A DNA stretch of 10,837 nt. Source: a virus. A program made the position numbers and the translations under genes. Where the stretch lies: UHGV virus genome UHGV-0335500; one strand, 5' to 3'. Shown one piece after another: positions 215 to 9,480 of the stretch. Each line of letters starts with the position of its first letter. The stretch's first letter is position 1. The notes beneath the pieces are model-generated. The model ran no database searches, was not told the DNA's origin, and worked only from the letters and a program-made list of their open reading frames with translations.

Positions 215-2080
215 GTGGCATTACCCCCGACAGATCACAAAGCAGACTGGAATGATTACCACCAAAAACACGGCATTAAATGCGCCACAGAAGCGTTCAA
301 TAAGTCAATGTACCAACCACAGGGTAATGGCGTGAAACAGGAGCCACAGACCATTGAGGGAAGCGATTTTAAGGTTATGGATACCGACCCACTGAAACCA
401 AGAATAGAAAGCCGCGAGGATGGTATTTATTGGGTATCTCCGAGAGCTGACAGCCAGAGTGGAGAAATCATCAATAACGAAAGCTGGTTATGTTCTCCGT
501 TAAGCGTTATCGGTACTGGCAGAGACGATAAAGACCAGTATCTCATTCTTCGCTGGCTGTCGTTTGGTTCTGAAACGCCGACAACCGCTGCCATTCCACT
601 GGCTGATATTGGTGAACGTGAAGGATGGCGCACACTTAAAGCTGGTGGGGTAAATGTCACGACCAAAAGCAGCCTCAGAGCAATACTGGCAGACTGGCTA
701 CAACGCAGTGGCTCTCGTGAATTGTGGCGTGTTGCTCATGCCACTGGCTGGCAATGCGGAGCGTACATCATGCCTGATGGGGAAATCATCGGAACACCTG
801 AAAATCCTGTGCTGTTCAGCGGGAGAAGCTCAGCCGCAGCCGGATATACCGTCTCAGGGAGCGCGAAAAGCTGGCGTGATAACGTGGCGCGTCTGGCCTT
901 TGGTAACTATTCAATGATGACCGGGATCGGCGCAGCACTGGCAGCGCCATTGATTGGGCTGGTGGGCGCTGACGGGTTCGGCATTCATTTCTATGAGCAG
1001 TCGAGCGCAGGTAAGACCACCACGGCAAACGTGGCGAGCAGCTTATACGGCAACCCTGATTTACTGCGGCTGACGTGGTACGGAACCGCGCTGGGGCTGG
1101 CAAATGAAGCCGCCGCCCACAATGACGGACTAATGCCGCTTGATGAAGTTGGTCAGGGCGCTGATCCTGTCAGTGTTTCACAGTCTGCCTATGCGTTATT
1201 TAACGGTGTAGGGAAACTGCAAGGCGCTAAAGATGGTGGAAACCGGGATCTAAAACGCTGGCGTACAGTGGCAATCAGCACCGGAGAAATGGATTTAGAA
1301 ACATTTATCGCTACTTCCGGGCGAAAAACCAAAGCCGGGCAACTGGTGCGACTGCTGAATATTCCGTTGAGTAAAGCAGTACGCTTTCACGATTACCAGA
1401 ACGGAAAACAGCACGCAGACGCACTGAAAGACGCTTACCAGCATCACCACGGCGCGTCCGGGCGTGAGTGGATTAAATGGCTGGCAGACCACCAGCAACA
1501 GGCTATTAAAACTGTTCGTGACTGCGAAAGCAGATGGAGAAGCCTGATCCCATCCGATTATGGTGAGCAGGTTCACCGTGTAGCCGCGCGATTTGCCATT
1601 CTGGAGGCCGCATTGTTGTTAGGCGAGGTTGTAACAGGCTGGGATGCTCAGACATGCCGTGATGCGATACAGCACAGCTATAACGCATGGTTGCGCGAGT
1701 TCGGCACAGGTAACAAAGAGCATCAGCAGATTATTGAACAAACGGAGGCATTTCTTAATGCCTATGGGCTTAGCCGTTTTGCACCATTTCCATACAGCCC
1801 GGCAGATTTGCCCATCAAAGATTTAGCCGGATACCGTCAGCGTGGAGAACATGACGAAAGCCCAATGATTTTCTACACATTCCCGGCCACATTTGAAAAG
1901 GAGATCGCATGTGGTTTCAACGCAAAACAGTTTGCTGAAGTGTTGAAAAAAGCCGGGATGCTAACCCCACCAAACAGCGGTCGTGGATACCAAAGAAAAT
2001 CACCACGTATTCAGGGACGACAAATAAACGTTTATGTACTCAATTACCAGCCAGGAGATTACAACTCATCTGAAGAATGA
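215..2080 (+). CDS. P4 alpha-like primase-helicase, C-terminal NTPase/helicase portion (D5_N / DUF927-type); gene looks 5'-disrupted or N-terminally truncated
   Basis: 621-aa ORF from GTG 215 to TGA 2078-2080. Walker A-like motif HFYEQSSAGKTTTANV sits at about 1007-1021. Overall architecture matches my recollection of P4 alpha-type primase-helicases, and the gene is followed immediately by iterons. Confidence 0.8.
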   Translation: MALPPTDHKADWNDYHQKHGIKCATEAFNKSMYQPQGNGVKQEPQTIEGSDFKVMDTDPLKPRIESREDGIYWVSPRADSQSGEIINNESWLCSPLSVIGTGRDDKDQYLILRWLSFGSETPTTAAIPLADIGEREGWRTLKAGGVNVTTKSSLRAILADWLQRSGSRELWRVAHATGWQCGAYIMPDGEIIGTPENPVLFSGRSSAAAGYTVSGSAKSWRDNVARLAFGNYSMMTGIGAALAAPLIGLVGADGFGIHFYEQSSAGKTTTANVASSLYGNPDLLRLTWYGTALGLANEAAAHNDGLMPLDEVGQGADPVSVSQSAYALFNGVGKLQGAKDGGNRDLKRWRTVAISTGEMDLETFIATSGRKTKAGQLVRLLNIPLSKAVRFHDYQNGKQHADALKDAYQHHHGASGREWIKWLADHQQQAIKTVRDCESRWRSLIPSDYGEQVHRVAARFAILEAALLLGEVVTGWDAQTCRDAIQHSYNAWLREFGTGNKEHQQIIEQTEAFLNAYGLSRFAPFPYSPADLPIKDLAGYRQRGEHDESPMIFYTFPATFEKEIACGFNAKQFAEVLKKAGMLTPPNSGRGYQRKSPRIQGRQINVYVLNYQPGDYNSSEE

Positions 2081-2096: not shown

Positions 2097-2215
2097 AGAA
2101 AAGGTGTTGGTTCAGTTGGTTCAGTTGGTTCAATTTGTAAAGAGTATTGTTTTATAAGGATTTTATTCTTTTTATTGAACCAACACTGAACCAACAACAC
2201 GGCATTTTGAACCAA
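2097..2215. repeat. Iteron cluster A: 3 tight direct TTGGTTCA(G/A) repeats, AT-rich spacer, 3 inverted TGAACCAA repeats; ori/crr-like
   Basis: Direct 9-mers at 2107-2115, 2116-2124 and 2125-2133. AT-rich spacer 2134-2174. Inverted copies (C/T)TGAACCAA at 2175-2183, 2186-2194 and 2207-2215. Positions 2101-2144 are the exact reverse complement of 8601-8644. Lies 17 bp after the primase stop. Confidence 0.8.
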
Positions 2216-2315
2216 CACAACGTGACTGAATTGATGAGCACAACATCTGGCTGGCATTAGAGAGTGTTTTACGAAATCTGAACACCACATCACTGGTTTC
2301 AGTGGGAGATTGATG

Positions 2316-2951: not shown

Positions 2952-3125
2952 ATGGCTATTTCAGTAAAGCCAGTATTGATAAGTGAGAAGCAAATGGAAG
3001 CGATAAAGAAAATTCAGGAGGAGCAGCGTAAAAAATCAGAGGTAGGAGTTGCGCCAACGATCCACGAAATTGCTCGGGGATTAATGGATAAGGCGCTGGC
3101 TTACACTTTAACTGGACGTGGGTAA
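2952..3125 (+). CDS. Small (57 aa) Lys/Glu-rich protein, possible ribbon-helix-helix DNA-binding protein; first gene of operon
   Basis: Not in the ORF track (under 60 aa). ATG 2952 is preceded by AAGGGGG at 2941-2947. Translation is MAISVKPVLISEKQMEAIKKIQEEQRKKSEVGVAPTIHEIARGLMDKALAYTLTGRG. The strand-helix-loop-helix pattern is by eye only. Stop TAA at 3123-3125 abuts the next start. Confidence 0.5.
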   Translation: MAISVKPVLISEKQMEAIKKIQEEQRKKSEVGVAPTIHEIARGLMDKALAYTLTGRG

Positions 3126-3129
3126 ATCA

Positions 3130-4596
3130 ATGGCTACGTGGCAACAGGGTATTAATTCTGGTGGTTTTCTGGCTGGCATCGGTACGCAAAATGAGAATGC
3201 GCCAAAGGCAAGCGACATTAACGCAACGCTTGGTCTGATCCGCGAAAACAATGAACTGGCTCGCTCAGGTGCAAATAACGTTGCTCTGACAGGTCTTCGT
3301 GGTCTGGCTGGCGTTGCTGATATTTATAAGCAGCAGCAACAGCAGGAGCGTAAAGCGGCATTCCAGAAAGGTTATGCAGATGCTTATGCGTCCGGTGACA
3401 GGGAGCAGATGCGTAATCTTATTACAGCATTCCCAGAAGAGTTTGAGGAAGTCCGTAAAGGGATGAGTTATGTCGATGATGCTCAAAGGGATGATTATGG
3501 CAATCTGGCGCTCAAAGCACAGGTAGCCTCATCGCTTGGTCAGGGCGCATTTGGCAGGTTCATGATGGATAATGAGCAGGAGATGCGTCGTTTAGGTATC
3601 CCTCCAGAAACTATTGCTGAAATGCAGGTTAATGACCCGCAGGGCTTCCAGCATTTCGCAGGTAATCTGGCGCTGTTTTCTCTCGGTCATGAGAAGTATT
3701 TCGATATCAAAGATCAAATGGAAGGTCGGGATATTGAGCGTGGCAAGTTGGCAGAGACAATCCGCAGCAATCAGGCTGGCGAAGCACTTCAGGCGAGAGG
3801 GCAGGATATTAGCCGAGCAAATGCGTTAACGTCAGCATATGCACCAACAGCAGCAATGCAGAATTACAATCAGTACGCTCAAATGTTAAAGGCGGATCCA
3901 GAGGGGGCGGCGGCATTTGCGGCAGCGGCTGGAATTAATACAAACGCCAAAAAATTAATGAGTGTTAGAGAAAACGATGATGGCACTGTCACAAAATACT
4001 ACACAGACGGAAGTGAAGAGCAGGGAAAACTAAACCAGCCAATATCTGGAGATGGGTTTCGTCCAATAGCTTTGCCAACAGCCCAAAAGATCATGGAAAA
4101 GTCGCCAGAAGGGGCTAAAAAAGCTGCTGGATTTGCATACAGGGTTAGGGATGCTCTTGATTCAATAGATACACTGAAAGACCAGCTTAGCCCACAGCGA
4201 GTGGCGATCATTAATAATGCTTTGGGTAATGGGACGCTGGCTAACTTAACGCTCAGCCCAACAGAACAGCAATACGTTGTTAATGCTAATGACGCAATAA
4301 TGGCAATACTCCGTCAGGAAACAGGGGCAGCCATCGTACCTGCTGAAATGTCAAAATATTATCAAATGTATTTCCCTCAGCCTGGCGACTCCACAAAAAC
4401 CATTGATACCAAGCGCCGGAAGATGGAAAACCAGTTCAATTCGCTGAAAGCTGCTTCTGGTCGAGCTTATGATGCTTTGCGGGTTATTTCAGCAGTTGAC
4501 AGAGGAACTTCTTCTTCGTCGCAGACATTGCCGCAATCTGAGCAGGTATCACAGCCAGCAGCCAGCAGTAACTTTTCTTCACTATGGGGTGATTAA
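3130..4596 (+). CDS. Hypothetical Ala/Gln-rich protein (about 489 aa), no recognisable catalytic motif
   Basis: Long ORF (track 3118..4596 from GTG; ATG 3130 preferred). Contains a poly-Gln run (KQQQQQERK) and is predicted to be largely helical and low-complexity. The stop overlaps the next start as TAATG at 4594-4598. Confidence 0.85.
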   Translation: MATWQQGINSGGFLAGIGTQNENAPKASDINATLGLIRENNELARSGANNVALTGLRGLAGVADIYKQQQQQERKAAFQKGYADAYASGDREQMRNLITAFPEEFEEVRKGMSYVDDAQRDDYGNLALKAQVASSLGQGAFGRFMMDNEQEMRRLGIPPETIAEMQVNDPQGFQHFAGNLALFSLGHEKYFDIKDQMEGRDIERGKLAETIRSNQAGEALQARGQDISRANALTSAYAPTAAMQNYNQYAQMLKADPEGAAAFAAAAGINTNAKKLMSVRENDDGTVTKYYTDGSEEQGKLNQPISGDGFRPIALPTAQKIMEKSPEGAKKAAGFAYRVRDALDSIDTLKDQLSPQRVAIINNALGNGTLANLTLSPTEQQYVVNANDAIMAILRQETGAAIVPAEMSKYYQMYFPQPGDSTKTIDTKRRKMENQFNSLKAASGRAYDALRVISAVDRGTSSSSQTLPQSEQVSQPAASSNFSSLWGD

Positions 4597-6701
4597 TGGC
4601 TAAAGCATGGAAAGATGTTATCGCCTCTCCACAGTATCAGGCGTTAGCACCAGAACAAAAAGCGCAGGCTCAGGAGCAATACTTCAATGAAGTCGTGGCC
4701 CCGCAAGCCGGAGAAAGTGTAGAGCAGGCTAAGCAGGCTTTTTATGCTGCCTATCCACTACCATCAACGAATGAAATAGACCGATCCCAATCAGCAACTC
4801 AAAATATTCAACATACATCATCTGATAATTCTCTTGCGTCAGGGTATGCAAAGTTAGCTACTCAGCAAAGAGAGGGGCTTGAGCGTTCAGCAGAACAGGG
4901 AGCCAGTCTTGGGGCTGCGATGCGCGATGCTATAACAGGCGAAAGCCGAATGACTCCAGAGATGGAGAGACTGCAAAATGTCGACCTTGCCCCAGAGTTA
5001 ACCTCACTCAGCATGGATGCTCTAAAAGCTCGATGGTCTCAACTTTTCGGCTCTGACGCATCTCAGGAAAAGATTCTTCAGAGCATGGGAGCGAAATTAA
5101 GGCAGGATGAGAAGGGTAACACTATCGTTTCCCTGCCATCCGGTGATTATGCTCTGAACAAGCCGGGTTTATCGCCGCAAGACGTGGCATCGTTTCTGGC
5201 TAATGCGCTGGCGTTTACACCAGCGGGCAGGGCTGGAACGGTGCTTGGTGCCATAGGAAAATCAGCAGCTACAGATTTAGCACTACAGGGAGCCACTAGC
5301 CTTGCTGGTGGAGAAGATATTGATCCGTTACAAACGGTAATTTCTGCTGGCATTGGTGGTATTGGTAAGGGGCTGGAAAATACAGCGAGTGCGGTTTCGA
5401 GGGCTGTTCGTGGTGATATGTCGCCTGAAGCAAAGGCTGCTGTCGACTTTGCATCGGAAAGAAATCTGCCGTTAATGACCAGTGACGTACTGAAAGATAA
5501 AAACACTGTGCAGAGTCTGGCCCAGAAAACAGGCGAAAAAATTCCTTTTTTTGGAACGGGTACGAACAGGCTGAATCAACAACAGGCTCGGGAAAATCTG
5601 GTCAGAACATATAACGATGGTCTGGGAGGCATTTCAGATAAACAGCTTTATGAGTCTGCTACTAAAGGGCAGCAAAAATTCATTGAGGCCGCAGGTAAGC
5701 GATATAACCGCATAATTGACGCTATGGGGGATACCCCTGTCGACCTATCAAACACGGTAAAAGCTATCGACAATCAGATTGCCGTGTTAAGCCGCCCGGG
5801 CAAATCTCAGGATAGAGCCGCGGTAAAAGTCTTGCAGCAATTTAAAGACGATATCACCAGCGGGCCAAATGACCTGCGTCTGGCGAGGGAAAACAGAACC
5901 GATCTTCGAAAGCGATTTATGGCGTCATCTGACACTGTTGATAAAGATACGCTCCAGAAAGCCAGCGATATTATCTACAAGGCATATACGGCGGATATGA
6001 AAAAAGCCGTAGCCAAAAATCTTGGAGCAGACGAAGCCATTAATATGGCAAGGGTTGATCGCTCATGGTCTAAATTCAATGACATGATGGGAAGAACGCG
6101 CGTTCAAAAGGCAATAGCCAGCGGCAAGGCCACGCCTGAGGATGTAACAAAACTCGTGTTTAGTCAAAGCCCATCAGAACGTTCTCAGCTTTACAGGCTT
6201 CTGGATGACAATGGTAGGCAAAACGCACGAGCAGCCATAGTTCAGAATGCTGTAGATAAGGCGACTGATCCGTCTGGAAATATCAGTGTTGAGAAGTTTA
6301 TTAATGCGTTACACCGGAACAGGAAGCAATCAGCAACTTTCTTTAAAGGCGTGCACGGAAAGGAACTGGACGGCATTATTAAATACCTCAACGATACCAG
6401 ACAGGCGGCAAAGGTTGACGGTCAGAAATTAAACAGCCAGAAACTTTATGGCCTGCTGGTTGGTGGAGGCGCTATAAATGCGGCAGTTCTGGCGGGGATG
6501 CTGAAAACGGCTGCGTTTGTTGTTCCTGCTGCTGGTGCTTTAGGCGGAGCAGCGAAGGCATACGAAAGCCCTGTTATACGAAATGCCTTATTACGTCTGG
6601 CAAATACGCCAAAAGGTAGCACAGCATATGACAGAGCGATCAGTACAGTCACACAATCACTGACCACAGCAGCACAAGCATCGCAAAAGGAAGCTCAATA
6701 A
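4596..6701 (+). CDS. Hypothetical large protein (701 aa) with glycine-zipper-like hydrophobic segments; possibly membrane-interacting
   Basis: ORF 4596..6701, translationally coupled to the upstream gene. Gly/Ala-rich hydrophobic stretches: TVLGAIGKSAATDLALQGATSLAGG, VISAGIGGIGKGL and C-terminal LYGLLVGGGAINAAVLAGMLKTAAFVVPAAGALGGAAKAY. No canonical Walker A or nuclease motif seen. Confidence 0.9.
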   Translation: MAKAWKDVIASPQYQALAPEQKAQAQEQYFNEVVAPQAGESVEQAKQAFYAAYPLPSTNEIDRSQSATQNIQHTSSDNSLASGYAKLATQQREGLERSAEQGASLGAAMRDAITGESRMTPEMERLQNVDLAPELTSLSMDALKARWSQLFGSDASQEKILQSMGAKLRQDEKGNTIVSLPSGDYALNKPGLSPQDVASFLANALAFTPAGRAGTVLGAIGKSAATDLALQGATSLAGGEDIDPLQTVISAGIGGIGKGLENTASAVSRAVRGDMSPEAKAAVDFASERNLPLMTSDVLKDKNTVQSLAQKTGEKIPFFGTGTNRLNQQQARENLVRTYNDGLGGISDKQLYESATKGQQKFIEAAGKRYNRIIDAMGDTPVDLSNTVKAIDNQIAVLSRPGKSQDRAAVKVLQQFKDDITSGPNDLRLARENRTDLRKRFMASSDTVDKDTLQKASDIIYKAYTADMKKAVAKNLGADEAINMARVDRSWSKFNDMMGRTRVQKAIASGKATPEDVTKLVFSQSPSERSQLYRLLDDNGRQNARAAIVQNAVDKATDPSGNISVEKFINALHRNRKQSATFFKGVHGKELDGIIKYLNDTRQAAKVDGQKLNSQKLYGLLVGGGAINAAVLAGMLKTAAFVVPAAGALGGAAKAYESPVIRNALLRLANTPKGSTAYDRAISTVTQSLTTAAQASQKEAQ

Positions 6702-7252: not shown

Positions 7253-7343
7253 GCCCCCGTTGATGGGGTCGTTACAGTACGCGCATATCCGCTTTATGTG
7301 AAACAGGAAGATTTTTCTGATATCACTGCCACAGCAAAACACC

Positions 7344-7367
7344 AATTTCGTGACCAGTACGCGCGCG
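7344..7367. repeat. Dispersed 24-bp repeat, copy R2 (AATTTCGTGACCAGTACGCGCGCG)
   Basis: Shares AATTTC-N2-GA-N2-A-N-TACGCGCGCG with copies at 7631-7656 and 9240-9263. Shorter partial copies sit at 7275-7285 (ACAGTACGCGC) and 7405-7415 (GACCAGTACGC). Confidence 0.6.
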
Positions 7368-7630
7368 AGGGGTATCAGTTGCAAAAAATTTTGCAACTGC
7401 GTCCGACCAGTACGCACACGATGGCGGGGAGCACCATAAAACTGTTCTCTACATAAGACAGAGTGGTGGTGATGTGTTGATTATCGGCGTATATGCGCAC
7501 AGGACGCGCTATGACGATATTTTATGCGGGTACACCAATCACATGTATCTGGTGTGATCAATCGCGTTACATGACATCTCATGTTGTGCTGGTGATTATC
7601 ACGACGTTCTGAATCTGGCCTTTGCCTGAT

Positions 7631-7656
7631 ATTTTGCGACAAGTACGCGCGCGTAG
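7631..7656. repeat. Dispersed 24-bp repeat, copy R4, with perfect palindromic core GTACGCGCGCGTAC
   Basis: ATTTTGCGACAAGTACGCGCGCGTAG. The alternating CG core is self-complementary. Confidence 0.6.
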
Positions 7657-7681
7657 CATCGACAGCATACACATTGGATAT

Positions 7682-7882
7682 TCATTTTGTGACCAATGCG
7701 ATAAGTAGCGGGATAAGAATTGATAAAATCAACAGGACGATGATCCACTTTTGATTCTCGTCCATCTTATCTGCTAGGCGACGCTCCATTCCGTGCATAT
7801 CACCGCGAATGGCAATCATCTCATTGCGAACATCCGAGAAGTGGTTGGCTTGATGTTCAATGTGTGGCGTTCTGCCTTTCAT
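7682..7882 (-). CDS. Small tail-anchored membrane protein (66 aa); possibly XhlA/holin-like
   Basis: ATG at 7882-7880 preceded by Shine-Dalgarno GGTGAGGA. Translation MKGRTPHIEHQANHFSDVRNEMIAIRGDMHGMERRLADKMDENQKWIIVLLILSILIPLLIALVTK has a charged N-terminal part and one C-terminal transmembrane helix. Family assignment is from memory, low confidence. Confidence 0.55.
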   Translation of the reverse strand: MKGRTPHIEHQANHFSDVRNEMIAIRGDMHGMERRLADKMDENQKWIIVLLILSILIPLLIALVTK

Positions 7883-7961
7883 GTCTGATCCTCACCTATC
7901 GTCACCACCTGATGGTGTATAAAGGTATTAGCCCAAGCAGCTTTCCAATGGGCACTCATGT

Positions 7962-8417
7962 TTATACGCTGACCTTACAATCAATCACCGCTTTTAACTT
8001 TTCAGCATTGCTTCCCTGACGCTTCCACGCGCTGTAAATATCTTTATCCCACGCTTTACCAGCTTTTGTTTGATAGCCTGCTTCATTGATCCGTTCAGCT
8101 ATCACACGCCCATTATCAAATCCCTGTTGGATGGTATCGGCAATGATCTTTATAACTGCCGTTTCGTTATATGGTTTTGGTGGGATGTTCGGCTTTCCGG
8201 CAATAAGCGACGCAGCGGCTTTTTCCATGCGCTCCACCAGCCCAAGCATTCGTGAATCAATAGACTTTTCCGGCTGCCCCAGCTTCATGCGAATCGCATC
8301 AACAAGCCAAGAGGTTTTATCTCCTCCAGAAGCGAGAACAGACCGATTAAACTCATCCTGCAATTCAGATGGGATGCGGAACGCGATCAGATTAGATTTG
8401 CTCATTGCAAAGACCAT
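7962..8417 (-). CDS. Ribbon-helix-helix-like DNA-binding protein (147-151 aa)
   Basis: ORF track 7962..8417 (minus); alternative start ATG at 8405-8403 (MSKSNLIAFRIPSELQDEFNRSV...). N-terminus fits a beta-strand plus two helices. Co-directional with and 79 bp upstream of the 66-aa membrane protein gene, so probably one operon. Confidence 0.65.
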   Translation of the reverse strand: MVFAMSKSNLIAFRIPSELQDEFNRSVLASGGDKTSWLVDAIRMKLGQPEKSIDSRMLGLVERMEKAAASLIAGKPNIPPKPYNETAVIKIIADTIQQGFDNGRVIAERINEAGYQTKAGKAWDKDIYSAWKRQGSNAEKLKAVIDCKVSV

Positions 8418-8435
8418 ATCAGTGAGTAATATCCA

Positions 8436-8464
8436 TACAGTATACCACTGTATAACACTGTTAT
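8436..8464. promoter_or_regulatory. Adjacent palindromes TACAGT-N5-ACTGTA and ATAACA-C-TGTTAT upstream of the ribbon-helix-helix gene; candidate autoregulatory operator
   Basis: Inverted repeats read directly at 8436-8452 and 8452-8464, in the 5' region of the leftward gene. Confidence 0.4.
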
Positions 8465-8520
8465 ACGCTCAAATATCAGCCAGAAAATAACAGACCAATC
8501 ACAAATCTATCGCTGTGTTG

Positions 8521-8644
8521 TTGGTTCAGAGCTGGGCTGTGTTGGTTCAAAATGAGTTGATGTTGGTTCAATATTTTAGAAAAAACACAATAAAAACAAC
8601 GCTCTTTACAAATTGAACCAACTGAACCAACTGAACCAACACCT
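8521..8644. repeat. Iteron cluster B: inverted copy of cluster A (3 loose TTGGTTCA at 21-bp spacing, AT-rich spacer, 3 tight TGAACCAA); ori/crr-like
   Basis: TTGGTTCA(G/A) at 8521-8529, 8542-8550 and 8563-8571. AT-rich 8572-8612. (T/C)TGAACCAA at 8613-8621, 8622-8630 and 8631-8639. Positions 8601-8644 are the reverse complement of 2101-2144. Confidence 0.8.
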
Positions 8645-8676
8645 TTTTGCTTATCTATATAATCTGAGAGGCAGAA

Positions 8677-8964
8677 ATGATAAAGGACAGGAAAGCTGAA
8701 GAGCTGGAGTCAAAAGGGCTATACCGGAGAGCTGCCGCACGATGGGCAGAAGTCATGATGCTGGCAGATGGCGATAAAGAACGTGAACATGCAGTAAACA
8801 GACGCTCTGAATGTATCCGTAAGGCGGCACGCCCACCAGCAACTACAGACAGATTCGGAGATTTAAGACAGGCAGTTAAGCGGACTCATTCGGCTCTTGG
8901 TATGGATGAGGAAGCGAGAGGGTACTTCAGGCGTTATCGCGATAAAGATTGCCAGAGACAGTAA
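8677..8964 (+). CDS. PerC-family-like small transcriptional regulator (95 aa)
   Basis: ORF with Shine-Dalgarno GAGG 6 nt before the ATG. AEELESKGLYRRAAARWAEVMM resembles the conserved N-terminal signature of PerC/Pch-type regulators as I recall it. Confidence 0.6.
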   Translation: MIKDRKAEELESKGLYRRAAARWAEVMMLADGDKEREHAVNRRSECIRKAARPPATTDRFGDLRQAVKRTHSALGMDEEARGYFRRYRDKDCQRQ

Positions 8965-9070
8965 TGCTCTCTCTGTTTTGGCAAATTACCCCTCACTTTG
9001 AAGGGATCGGAGCTATAAAAATGGTGTTATCCGGAATCCTCAAATTGAGGATTGTGGAAGAATCAATGGG

Positions 9071-9084
9071 TTAGGTCATCGTGC
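9071..9084. other. Perfect 14-bp palindrome GTGCAAATTTGCAC in the junction region
   Basis: Read directly. Sits among other hairpin-capable repeats, for example AATCCTCA-N3-TGAGGATT around 9036-9054 (approximate) and GCCAACG-N8-CGTTGGC around 9090-9115. Confidence 0.4.
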
Positions 9085-9239
9085 AAATTTGCACTCTGCC
9101 AGCCAACGCAATTTCTCGTTGGCGGAAATATCAGGTATTTACTGAACGAACGGTCTACCAGTCTGTTCAGTTACCAGTTGCACATGGCTGTTTCATGTGA
9201 GAACGGAGGTTTTTTTCGGACATCGCTATTGGGTACAGC

Positions 9240-9263
9240 AATTTCACGAGCAATACGCGCGCG
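9240..9263. repeat. Dispersed 24-bp repeat, copy R5 (AATTTCACGAGCAATACGCGCGCG)
   Basis: Same motif as 7344-7367 and 7631-7656, about 1.6 kb away in the junction region. Confidence 0.55.
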
Positions 9264-9348
9264 CAGGACAACAAGCCTGAACATGGTTACACACCTCGAT
9301 CCTGAGGGATGTAGACAATGGCTTCTGACCAAAGCACCCGAAAAAACC

Positions 9349-9370
9349 GTGTACATAAGGGTGTACATAA
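9349..9370. repeat. Tandem direct repeat GTGTACATAA-GG-GTGTACATAA; possible recombinase arm-type or regulator binding sites
   Basis: Two identical 10-mers at 9349-9358 and 9361-9370. Confidence 0.45.
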
Positions 9371-9480
9371 TCAAAAATCGCATTAGCAAGAAACCAGCCA
9401 CAATGCGGCATTGAAGCCAACACTCTACAAACAGATTCAGAGTAACTCGTAACACTAATTCTTACTTTTCAGCCTTCACA

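What the first reader, a model, noticed from the sequence alone, without database searches (positions are those of the whole stretch)
7270..9266. Dispersed 24-bp repeat family with an alternating CG palindromic core
At least three good copies (7344-7367, 7631-7656, 9240-9263) and two partial copies (7275-7285, 7405-7415) share AATTTC-N2-GA-N2-A-N-TACGCGCGCG. Copy R4 contains the perfect palindrome GTACGCGCGCGTAC. All lie in non-coding DNA: four between the membrane-protein gene and the secreted-protein gene, one near the island-backbone junction. Spacing is irregular, so this is not a CRISPR array, and it does not match REP/BIME or ERIC consensus as I recall them. Candidates are binding sites for an island regulator, remnants of recombination sites, or a small mobile repeat.
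Basis: seen in the sequence. Interest (0 to 1): 0.5.

Follow-up and report, generated by a model that had tools for sequence, protein, structure and literature searches.

The report
Phage packaging-site mimics in a satellite
The repeated 24-bp motif is a set of short non-coding copies of one piece of the small-terminase gene of P22/Sf6-like phages, carried by a phage-parasitic island of E. coli, most likely so that the helper phage's packaging enzyme recognises the island's DNA and packs it into virus particles.

Summary
The repeat is real: three full and two partial copies, all on the + strand. Four matches to the 16-nt core were found where 0.04 are expected by chance. It is not a genome-wide repeat. 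It occurs in about 10% of complete E. coli genomes, always inside EcCIMP1-type phage-inducible chromosomal islands (PICIs). The window is one such island, lying between yicC and dinD.

Read in frame, the motif spells F-x-[D/E]-[Q/K]-Y-A-R, and its variable bases fall mostly on wobble positions. [quoted passage not shown]

Kapi1 is the experimentally proven helper of EcCIMP1. Its terS gene holds the only exact match to the 18-nt degenerate core in its 39-kb genome. EcCIMP1 itself carries three copies. The copies are not translated, and each matches a different terS allele of E. coli P22-like prophages: R2 18/18, R4 17/18, R5 20/20.

Non-coding copies also lie beside DUF927 helicase genes in Neisseria, Pasteurellaceae and other bacteria.

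Best reading (confidence about 0.6): these are pac-site mimics that recruit the helper's terminase. This is a new member of a known kind (P4 and SaPIbov5 cos sites, PLE pac site).

The parts
7334..7367 (+). R2: full copy. The core TTTCGTGACCAGTACGCG (7346-7363) is followed by a CGCG tail. Similarity to terS extends upstream to GCAAAAC (compare GCAAAGCAT in terS).
   Evidence: locate the copy. The alignment to Kapi1 terS covers 33 nt. The core is 18/18 identical to the L167-type terS allele of E. coli prophages.
7405..7420 (+). R3: partial copy GACCAGTACGCACACG. It lacks the TTT-NNN part.
   Evidence: The copy is conserved in related islands.
7272..7285 (+). R1: weak partial copy ACAGTACGCGCATA. 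It may be a chance match or a decayed copy.
   Evidence: The alignment to terS is not above shuffles.
7624..7656 (+). R4: full copy. The core TTTTGCGACAAGTACGCG (7632-7649) is followed by CGCGTAG and contains the 12-bp palindrome TACGCGCGCGTA. The variable cargo slot begins 8-9 bp after the CG run.
   Evidence: The core is 17/18 identical to the Kapi1/Sf6/HK620 terS segment, and the alignment covers 28 nt.
9230..9264 (+). R5: full copy. The core TTTCACGAGCAATACGCGCG (9242-9261) is preceded by a TGG that corresponds to the Trp codon of terS. It lies about 90 bp before attR.
   Evidence: The core is 20/20 identical to the L231-type terS allele, which belongs to a P22-like E. coli prophage.
215..2080 (+). 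C-terminal 621 codons of the island's TOPRIM/DUF927 primase-helicase gene. This is context: the replication module of the satellite, on the same strand as all repeat copies.
   Evidence: Pfam DUF927, E 1.7e-47. The full gene is annotated in L001/L002.
9349..9371 (+). attR core GTGTACATAAGGGTGTACATAAT. This is context: the right end of the island.
   Evidence: The same sequence lies next to the integrase gene at the yicC end (attL).

Best explanation
The copies are mimics of the helper phage's pac (packaging recognition) site. The window is the right part of an EcCIMP1-type PICI. This is a satellite with an integrase, AlpA and a TOPRIM/DUF927 replicase, and it has no terminase genes. Each copy is a 20-45-bp non-coding replica of the stretch of an Sf6-type terS gene that encodes ...R-W-L-x(4-6)-F-x-D-[Q/K]-Y-A... 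in the DNA-binding domain of TerS.

What is shown: the copies exist; they are specific to these islands; they are not translated; they match the terS genes of P22-like E. coli phages, including the proven helper Kapi1; and different copies match different terS alleles.

What is inferred: in these phages the pac site lies in this part of terS, as it does within gene 3 of P22 and, from my memory of Leavitt et al. 2013, within the DNA-binding-domain part of Sf6 gene 1. After helper induction the island excises and replicates. The helper's TerS ring then binds the copies and TerL cuts nearby. Headful packaging proceeds in the + direction and fills helper capsids with island concatemers. Having several copies, of different allele types, would raise the chance of initiation and may widen the range of usable helpers.
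For: 1. Codon-like variation. The copies read FRDQYAR, FCDKYAR, FHEQYAR and FRDKYAR, with the variable bases mostly at wobble positions.
2. Match to real terS genes. The same DNA pattern lies inside ORFs of 140-220 aa in about 50 phage or prophage loci. These ORFs are Pfam PF20901 Sf6_terminase, E 1e-42 to 1e-45.
3. Match to the proven helper. Kapi1, the experimentally shown helper of EcCIMP1 (PMC11773190), has an Sf6-identical TerS. The core TTTNNNGANMARTACGCG hits its 39.4-kb genome exactly once, inside terS. Only 1 of 200 shuffles gives such a hit.
4. Presence in EcCIMP1. EcCIMP1 carries three co-oriented copies, all of the Kapi1 type GACAAGTACGCG. One has an in-frame TGA.
5. Extended homology. 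The alignment reaches 44 nt for EcCIMP1's R5, scoring 38 against a shuffle maximum of 34.
6. Allele matching. R2 is 18/18 identical to an allele found in 151 E. coli genomes, R4 is 17/18 identical to Kapi1/Sf6/HK620, and R5 is 20/20 identical to a third allele in a P22-like prophage.
7. Synonymous bias in terS. In 20 non-redundant terS genes the motif codons are TTT 18/20, GAC 14/14, TAC 20/20 and GCG 17/20, against 25% GCG overall. The Ala column is the most biased in the gene.
8. Other taxa. Non-coding copies lie on the same strand as a DUF927 gene, and in 19 of 20 cases downstream of it, in Neisseria, Pasteurellaceae, Halomonas, Dyella and Xanthobacteraceae.
9. No terminase. The island has no TerS or TerL gene, and the EcCIMP1 paper states that its packaging mechanism is unknown.
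10. Precedent. Satellites are known to mimic helper packaging signals.
Against: No functional test was possible. I could not read the exact position of the Sf6-type pac site: Leavitt et al. 2013 is not held, so that point rests on my memory of its abstract. Identity with the E. coli helper alleles stops at TACGCG. All satellite copies continue CGCG(CG), whereas the helpers continue AAGG or CGAG. The excess of synonymous conservation at the motif is narrow at the level of 6-codon windows, 100.6 against 99.2, and the genes compared are related to each other. [quoted passage not shown] EcCIMP1 transduction by Kapi1 is reported to be very low despite its three copies. Gene conversion among copies could explain part of their similarity.
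Confidence: 0.6

Rival explanations
1. The copies are neutral scars. They are leftover fragments of terS genes acquired through past recombination with P22-like phages, which also gave the island its ejection-protein genes and a roi fragment. On this view they have no present function.
For: The island is a mosaic containing phage DNA. It has gp20- and gp16-like genes and a 60-nt roi fragment. The copies match three different phage alleles, as independent captures would. One contig, L134, joins Kapi1-like genes to this region.
Against: The same 20-45-bp piece of a 430-bp gene has been retained three to five times, always in one orientation, and nothing else of terS remains. The copies are conserved across islands at two att sites and in EcCIMP1. 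The same piece recurs as non-coding copies beside DUF927 genes in distant taxa. Random scars would sample random parts of phage genomes.
Confidence: 0.13
2. The copies are decoys rather than packaging signals. They bind the helper's TerS and draw terminase away from phage DNA. This would be interference or superinfection immunity, and would not serve the island's own transfer.
For: The sequence evidence is the same as for the main explanation. EcCIMP1 contributes to immunity against Kapi1, and its transduction frequency is very low (abstract).
Against: EcCIMP1 is specifically transduced by Kapi1, while a chromosomal marker is not. Any site that recruits terminase to a replicating concatemer would also start packaging there, so the two roles are hard to separate.
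Confidence: 0.1
3. The copies are operators for an island-encoded regulator (PerC-like, the 147-aa protein, or AlpA) that controls the accessory genes.
For: The copies sit in intergenic DNA around the perC module. R4 contains a 12-bp palindrome. In some islands + strand cargo genes lie downstream of R4 or R5.
Against: The match to helper terS genes, and the allele-specific variants, have no explanation under this idea. Only R4 is palindromic. No copy lies in the alpA or int promoter region. No promoter-like sites accompany the copies. Copies also occur in Neisseria islands, directly after the DUF927 gene.
Confidence: 0.05
4. The copies are boundary sequences that promote exchange of cargo modules by recombination between islands.
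For: Homology between the window and L003 breaks 8-9 bp after R4, where an Abi cassette replaces the 66-aa gene. L005 lacks the 286-bp R2-R4 interval, and the junction lies inside the repeat. R2 is polymorphic between GACCAG and GACAAG, which is consistent with gene conversion.
Against: The other homology breakpoints do not coincide with copies. No dedicated recombinase is associated with them. This idea does not explain the identity to terS. Deletions between 16-21-bp direct repeats are expected as a by-product.
Confidence: 0.07

Closest known systems
pac-site mimicry by the Vibrio cholerae satellite PLE (helper ICP1)
   Same: A non-coding stretch in a satellite shares a short exact match with the helper's pac region: 14 bp within an 89-bp similar region in PLE, and 17-20 bp within 28-44 bp here. 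In PLE the stretch is needed for transduction (bioRxiv 10.1101/2024.04.22.590561).
   Different: PLE has one copy, which mimics an intergenic pac region, and it also encodes the packaging proteins Gpi and GpsA/B. Here there are three to five dispersed copies that mimic the inside of the terS coding sequence and come in different allele types. Function has not been tested here.
cos-site carriage by P4, SaPIbov5 and E. coli PICIs such as EcCICFT073
   Same: The satellite carries the helper's packaging recognition sequence, so that the helper's terminase packages it (summarised; PMC9026076 is listed).
   Different: Those are cos sites of cos-type phages, present as a single copy and with defined ends. 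EcCICFT073 additionally uses the Rpp protein to retarget TerS. The present helpers are headful (pac) packagers of the P22/Sf6 type.
pac sites located inside terS genes: the P22 22-bp pac site in gene 3, and the Sf6 pac site in gene 1
   Same: In the phage, the recognition site lies within the small-terminase gene itself (P22: PMC9611059 and PMC7672466). The satellite copies correspond to part of the DNA-binding-domain coding region of Sf6-type terS.
   Different: I could not check the exact Sf6 pac coordinates. The satellite copies are outside any gene and end in a (CG)4-5 run that is absent from the E. coli helper alleles.
SaPI-type satellites that encode their own TerS
   Same: Both strategies target the small-terminase recognition step of a pac-type helper.
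   Different: This island encodes no TerS protein and has no PF20901 hit. It holds only short DNA fragments of the gene.
REP/BIME and ERIC intergenic repeats
   Same: They are short, GC-rich and intergenic.
   Different: REP and ERIC elements number in the hundreds per genome in all strains. This motif is confined to one island locus in about 10% of genomes.

Membership tests
Satellite mimicry of the helper's packaging signal | The element is a helper-dependent satellite without its own terminase. | tested here: met
   The island has int, an AlpA-like gene, TOPRIM/DUF927 and ori iterons. No TerS, TerL or portal gene was found. Its relative EcCIMP1 is excised and transduced only in the presence of Kapi1 (PMC11773190).
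Satellite mimicry of the helper's packaging signal | The satellite holds a non-coding sequence that matches a sequence in the helper genome. | tested here: met
   The core hits Kapi1 once, in terS, and 1 of 200 shuffles does the same. EcCIMP1 holds three copies. The copies are 17-20 nt identical to three E. coli terS alleles.
Satellite mimicry of the helper's packaging signal | The matched helper sequence is the helper's pac site. | tested here: inconclusive
   There is synonymous-codon bias at the motif in terS genes, and P22 provides a precedent. The Sf6 pac mapping paper is not held.
Satellite mimicry of the helper's packaging signal | The sequence is required for, or sufficient for, helper-mediated transduction. 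| not testable with these tools
   This needs deletion and plasmid-transduction experiments.
Sf6_terminase (PF20901) gene or pseudogene | An ORF, or a recognisable decayed ORF, covers the TerS domain. | tested here: not met
   The ORFs over the copies have no Pfam hit. tblastn with TerS finds only the 12-residue motif. The frames are broken in different ways in different islands.
REP/BIME/ERIC-type genome-wide repeats | There are many copies dispersed over the chromosome in most strains. | tested here: not met
   The motif occurs in 552-559 of 5426 genomes, with a median of one place per genome, and all contexts examined are PICIs.
CRISPR array | Repeats are regularly spaced, with spacers of similar length. 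| tested here: not met
   The spacings are 53, 233 and 1610 bp.
Integrase arm-type or att sites | The motif is tied to one integrase and is present in the att arms. | tested here: not met
   The same copies occur in islands at yicC-dinD and at thrW, which have different integrases. None is present in the attL arm. In thrW islands R5 lies 1.7 kb from the island end.
Structured RNA element | There is a stable or conserved secondary structure, or a match to an Rfam family. | tested here: not met
   Rfam gives no hit in the region. Fold z-scores range from -0.4 to +1.5 on both strands.

The most novel reading that the evidence does not exclude
The island carries an array of allele-specific pac mimics. 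R2, R4 and R5 would each be tuned to a different Sf6-family TerS variant circulating in E. coli P22-like prophages, so that one satellite could be packaged by several helper lineages. The R2 polymorphism (GACCAG versus GACAAG) would track the local helper. More broadly, the segment TTT-NNN-GAN-MAR-TAC-GCG would be the conserved pac recognition core of the whole Sf6_terminase family. TOPRIM/DUF927 satellites across Proteobacteria (Enterobacteriaceae, Neisseria, Pasteurellaceae, Halomonas and others) would have converged on carrying, or inherited, a non-coding copy of it that ends in a (CG)n run, possibly a stronger site than the phage's own coding-constrained one.
Probability: 0.3. Interest if true: 0.78.

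Novelty: new member of a known kind. Interest (0 to 1): 0.6.

Why it matters
EcCIMP1-type islands are found in about 10% of complete E. coli genomes. They belong to the large class of PICIs that lack any recognisable packaging module, and the only experimental paper on them states that the packaging mechanism is unknown. A short, mutable cis-acting candidate turns that question into a few simple experiments. The finding also points to a precise candidate for the pac recognition core of the widespread Sf6-type small terminases, whose DNA recognition has resisted study in vitro. Finally, it gives a sequence signature for finding satellites that depend on these phages in Neisseria, Pasteurellaceae and other bacteria. 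These islands carry defence genes such as Abi and virulence regulators such as PerC, so knowing which phages can move them bears on how such cargo spreads.

Tried and rejected
- Rfam scan of the window: nothing in the region.
- tRNA search: none found.
- Promoter and terminator scan: fewer sites than in shuffles, and none at the copies.
- RNA folding of the copies on both strands: no stable structure.
- att-arm site idea: rejected. The attL arm lacks the motif, and islands with a different integrase keep it.
- Genome-wide repeat idea: rejected.
- Direct DNA similarity of the spacer to sequenced phages: none at BLAST sensitivity. The 17-20-nt matches are too short to be reported.
- Phage N7, whose ejection-protein genes are the closest match among phage records, as a source of the motif: it has no match and carries a different TerS type.
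- ORFs over the copies (89-123 aa) and a 33-aa ORF: no Pfam or PHROG family, and the frames are not conserved.
- An apparent TerS-like stretch at 1911-2018: out of frame and not significant at the DNA level.
- Leavitt et al. 2013 and Zhao et al. 2012: not held.
- Nine further non-coding genome hits (Pseudomonas, Halomonas, Haemophilus, Rodentibacter, Alkanindiges and one alphaproteobacterium) could not be classified from 8-kb windows.
Full report
**Observation.** The region holds a family of direct repeats, all on the + strand. R2 is at 7344-7367, R3 (partial) at 7405-7420, R4 at 7631-7653 and R5 at 9240-9263. A weak R1 lies near 7272-7285. The 16-nt pattern GANCARTACGCGCGCG with up to 2 mismatches gives 4 matches against 0.04 expected, and none of 200 shuffles reaches 4. 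One detail in the finding is wrong: the palindrome in R4 is TACGCGCGCGTA (12 bp), not a 14-mer, because the last base is G.

**Context.** The window is 99.6% identical to a stretch of E. coli strain ISHS7. That stretch is an integrative island inserted between yicC and dinD. Its gene order is integrase, AlpA-like HTH, AntA/B, DUF4222, Ash, TOPRIM/DUF927 primase-helicase, P22-type ejection-protein genes, a small membrane-protein gene, the repeat-bearing spacer, two small genes, perC and attR. This is the architecture of EcCIMP1. EcCIMP1 is a phage-inducible chromosomal island shown experimentally to be excised and transduced only with the P22/Sf6-like helper phage Kapi1. Its authors state that it has no recognisable terminase or capsid-redirection genes and that its packaging mechanism is unknown (PMC11773190).

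**Distribution.** The repeat-bearing spacer occurs in 552-559 of 5426 complete E. coli genomes, usually once and never on plasmids. Every context I examined is an island of this type, either at yicC-dinD or at thrW. Islands at the two sites have different integrases and att sites but keep the same copies. The attL arm has none. That excludes a genome-wide repeat and att-arm sites. Rfam, tRNA, promoter/terminator and RNA-folding checks were all negative.

**The turning point.** A scan of public collections with ATTTYNNGANMARTACGCGCGCG returned 86 genome stretches and 59 viral stretches from very diverse bacteria. Read in the frame A|TTT|YNN|GAN|MAR|TAC|GCG|CGC|G, the pattern encodes F-x-[D/E]-[Q/K]-Y-A-R. 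In about 50 loci it sits in an ORF of 140-220 aa with the consensus ...GRPS.Y..ELA..IC..LA.G.SLR.IC....MP..STV.RWL..N.EF..QYARARE.QAD..., often followed by TerL and portal genes. These ORFs, like the Kapi1 TerS, are Pfam PF20901 (Sf6_terminase) with E values of 1e-42 to 1e-45. The island copies read FRDQYAR, FCDKYAR, FHEQYAR and FRDKYAR. The repeat is therefore a fragment or replica of a terS coding segment.

**Link to the helper.** Kapi1 (MT813197) encodes a TerS identical to Sf6 gp1. Its terS gene contains GAG GAT TTT CGC GAC AAG TAC GCG AAG GCA. The 18-nt degenerate core shared by all full island copies (TTTNNNGANMARTACGCG) hits the 39.4-kb Kapi1 genome exactly once, at this place. Only 1 of 200 shuffled genomes has any exact hit. 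Phage N7 has a different TerS type and no match. EcCIMP1 itself carries three co-oriented copies, all with the Kapi1-type GACAAGTACGCG. One of them has TGA at the x codon, so the copies are conserved as DNA, not as protein. Local alignments extend the homology to 28-44 nt. EcCIMP1's R5 aligns from the codons for F-R-W-L through Y-A, scoring 38 against a shuffle maximum of 34. All alignments end at TACGCG.

**Allele matching.** An unbiased set of 80 terS loci, retrieved by protein similarity, contains 22 DNA variants of the motif.
- R2 (TTTCGTGACCAGTACGCG) is 18/18 identical to the variant of an allele present at 99% identity or more in 151 E. coli genomes.
- R4, the thrW-type R5 and the EcCIMP1 copies match the Kapi1/Sf6/HK620 variant at 17/18.
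- The window's R5 (TTTCACGAGCAATACGCGCG) is 20/20 identical to a third allele. That allele sits next to terL, portal, scaffold and P22-type coat genes in an E. coli prophage.

R2 is polymorphic among islands (GACCAG or GACAAG) at exactly the codon that distinguishes two helper alleles. Full-length Sf6-type terS occurs in 229 of 5426 E. coli genomes.

**Is the segment a cis-acting site in the phage?** In 20 non-redundant terS genes the motif codons show strong synonymous bias: Phe TTT 18/20, Asp GAC 14/14, Tyr TAC 20/20 and Ala GCG 17/20. GCG makes up 25% of Ala codons in these genes overall. The Ala column is the most biased in the gene, and the 6-codon window over the motif ranks first, though only narrowly. 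This is suggestive rather than decisive. P22's pac site is a 22-bp sequence inside its terS gene (PMC9611059, PMC7672466). From my memory of the abstract of Leavitt et al. 2013, the Sf6 pac site lies in the part of gene 1 that encodes the DNA-binding domain. I could not obtain that paper.

**Generality.** Many hits in the genome collection are non-coding, with a stop codon directly before the motif. At least 17 genome loci and several viral loci have a DUF927 helicase gene on the same strand, and in 19 of 20 cases it lies upstream of the motif. The distance is about 320 bp in Neisseria and 0.9-5.5 kb in Pasteurellaceae, Halomonas, Dyella and Xanthobacteraceae. In Neisseria polysaccharea the neighbouring genes are a Zn-ribbon/Toprim primase and DUF927. 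Sf6-type terS genes occur in Neisseriaceae phages as well. Nine other hits could not be classified from 8-kb windows.

**Interpretation.** The best-supported explanation is packaging-signal mimicry. The satellite has no terminase. It carries several replicas of the helper's TerS recognition segment, so that the helper's terminase starts headful packaging on island concatemers. The anatomy, the distribution, the identity to terS genes and the allele matching are shown. The role of the segment as pac, and the role of the copies in transduction, are inferred. The mechanism has precedents in P4, SaPIbov5, EfCIV583 and PLE, whose mimic is a 14-bp exact match required for transduction.

**Points against.**
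- All satellite copies end in CGCG(CG), whereas the E. coli helper alleles continue AAGG or CGAG.
- Pac-phage TerS proteins bind pac DNA poorly in vitro.
- EcCIMP1 transduction is reported to be very low.
- One metagenomic contig joins Kapi1-like genes to this region. It could be a recombinant or an assembly chimera.

**Rivals.**
- Neutral terS scars. This is unlikely because the same small piece is kept three to five times, co-oriented and conserved across island lineages and taxa.
- TerS decoys for interference. This is compatible with the sequence data and hard to separate from the main explanation.
- Operators for PerC or another island regulator. This idea gives no account of the terS identity.
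- Recombination boundaries. Homology between islands does break 8-9 bp after R4, where an Abi cassette replaces the 66-aa gene, and one island has lost the R2-R4 interval with the junction inside the repeat. These look like by-products of having direct repeats.

**Verdict.** The likely partner, however, is the helper phage's small terminase. I rate this a new member of a known kind, with moderate to high interest. It offers a concrete, testable answer to how this abundant class of satellites without a recognisable packaging module is packaged, and a candidate pac core for a large terminase family.

Noticed in passing
window 2099-2219 and 8512-8647: An ori-like iteron block occurs twice, in inverted orientation. 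It consists of three GTTGGTTCA repeats, an AT-rich spacer and three TGAACCAAC repeats. One copy lies just after the DUF927 gene, and the other lies between the divergent 147-aa gene and perC (55 nt at 96% and 38 nt at 84% complementarity). The second copy is partly deleted in L003. This could be a second origin, a regulatory site for the replicase, or a substrate for inversion of the 6.3-kb segment in between.
   Followed up: partly
window 7657-7985; L003 9338-10690; L005 7030-8400: A variable cargo slot begins 8-9 bp after the CG run of R4. The window and L004 have a 66-aa gene there, L003 and L005 have an Abi-family gene, and EcCIMP1 has alpA_1. Homology resumes at the 3' end of the 147-aa gene.
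   Followed up: partly
L005 6990-7035: One island has a single hybrid copy, with the left flank of R2 and the right flank of R4. The 286-bp R2-R4 interval is absent, which indicates a deletion or insertion with its junction inside the repeat.
   Followed up: yes
window 9016-9075: A 60-nt fragment is 95-98% identical to the roi/KilA antirepressor gene of Stx and lambdoid phages. It lies in non-coding DNA between perC and R5 and is a recombination remnant.
   Followed up: no
window 9349-9371; L002 about 19285-19310: The att core of the island, GTGTACATA-N3-GTGTACATAAT, is present at both ends. Further TGTACA words lie in the arm next to the integrase gene. The integration site is the yicC-dinD intergenic region.
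   Followed up: partly
window 3118-6701: The satellite carries full-length homologues of the P22 ejection proteins gp20 and gp16. Its closest relative among phage records is phage N7, at about 72% identity. The EcCIMP1 authors also noted these genes. Their role in a satellite is unknown.
   Followed up: no
L014 (Neisseria polysaccharea) about 7469 in motif orientation; also L037, L054, L058, L074, L085, L102, L104: Neisseria islands with Zn-ribbon/Toprim primase, DUF927 and integrase genes carry one non-coding copy of the same motif about 320 bp after the DUF927 gene. Similar arrangements occur in Pasteurellaceae, Conchiformibius, Halomonas, Dyella and Xanthobacteraceae.
   Followed up: partly
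R5 of thrW-type islands (L003 11611, L004 10684, L155): The alternating CG run varies in length between islands, (CG)4 versus (CG)5. All satellite copies share this tail, although the E. coli helper terS alleles lack it.
   Followed up: no
L134 (IMG/VR metagenome contig) 1-14004: A single contig joins Kapi1-like terL-to-tail genes (90% identity) to the island's gp16-like gene, the R2-R4 spacer and EcCIMP1-like DNA. It is either a phage-satellite recombinant or an assembly chimera.
   Followed up: partly
L125 and L131 (IMG/VR): These are enterobacterial islands whose integrase closely resembles that of the window's island (tblastn E 1.5e-179). They have a single copy of the motif between the integrase and DUF927 genes rather than downstream of DUF927.
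   Followed up: no
window 7511-7612: There is a possible 33-aa ORF with a Shine-Dalgarno sequence and a hydrophobic C-terminus (MTIFYAGTPITCIWCDQSRYMTSHVVLVIITTF) inside the R3-R4 interval. It has no family match. Substitutions in L003 are mostly conservative or synonymous.
   Followed up: partly
L006 7004-7026 and 7210-7290: A different P4-like or PICI-like island near ygeQ, with Icd, DUF4222, primase, ProQ/FinO and PerC genes, has one R4-type copy after its last gene. Several GTACGC-containing words lie about 200 bp further on.
   Followed up: no
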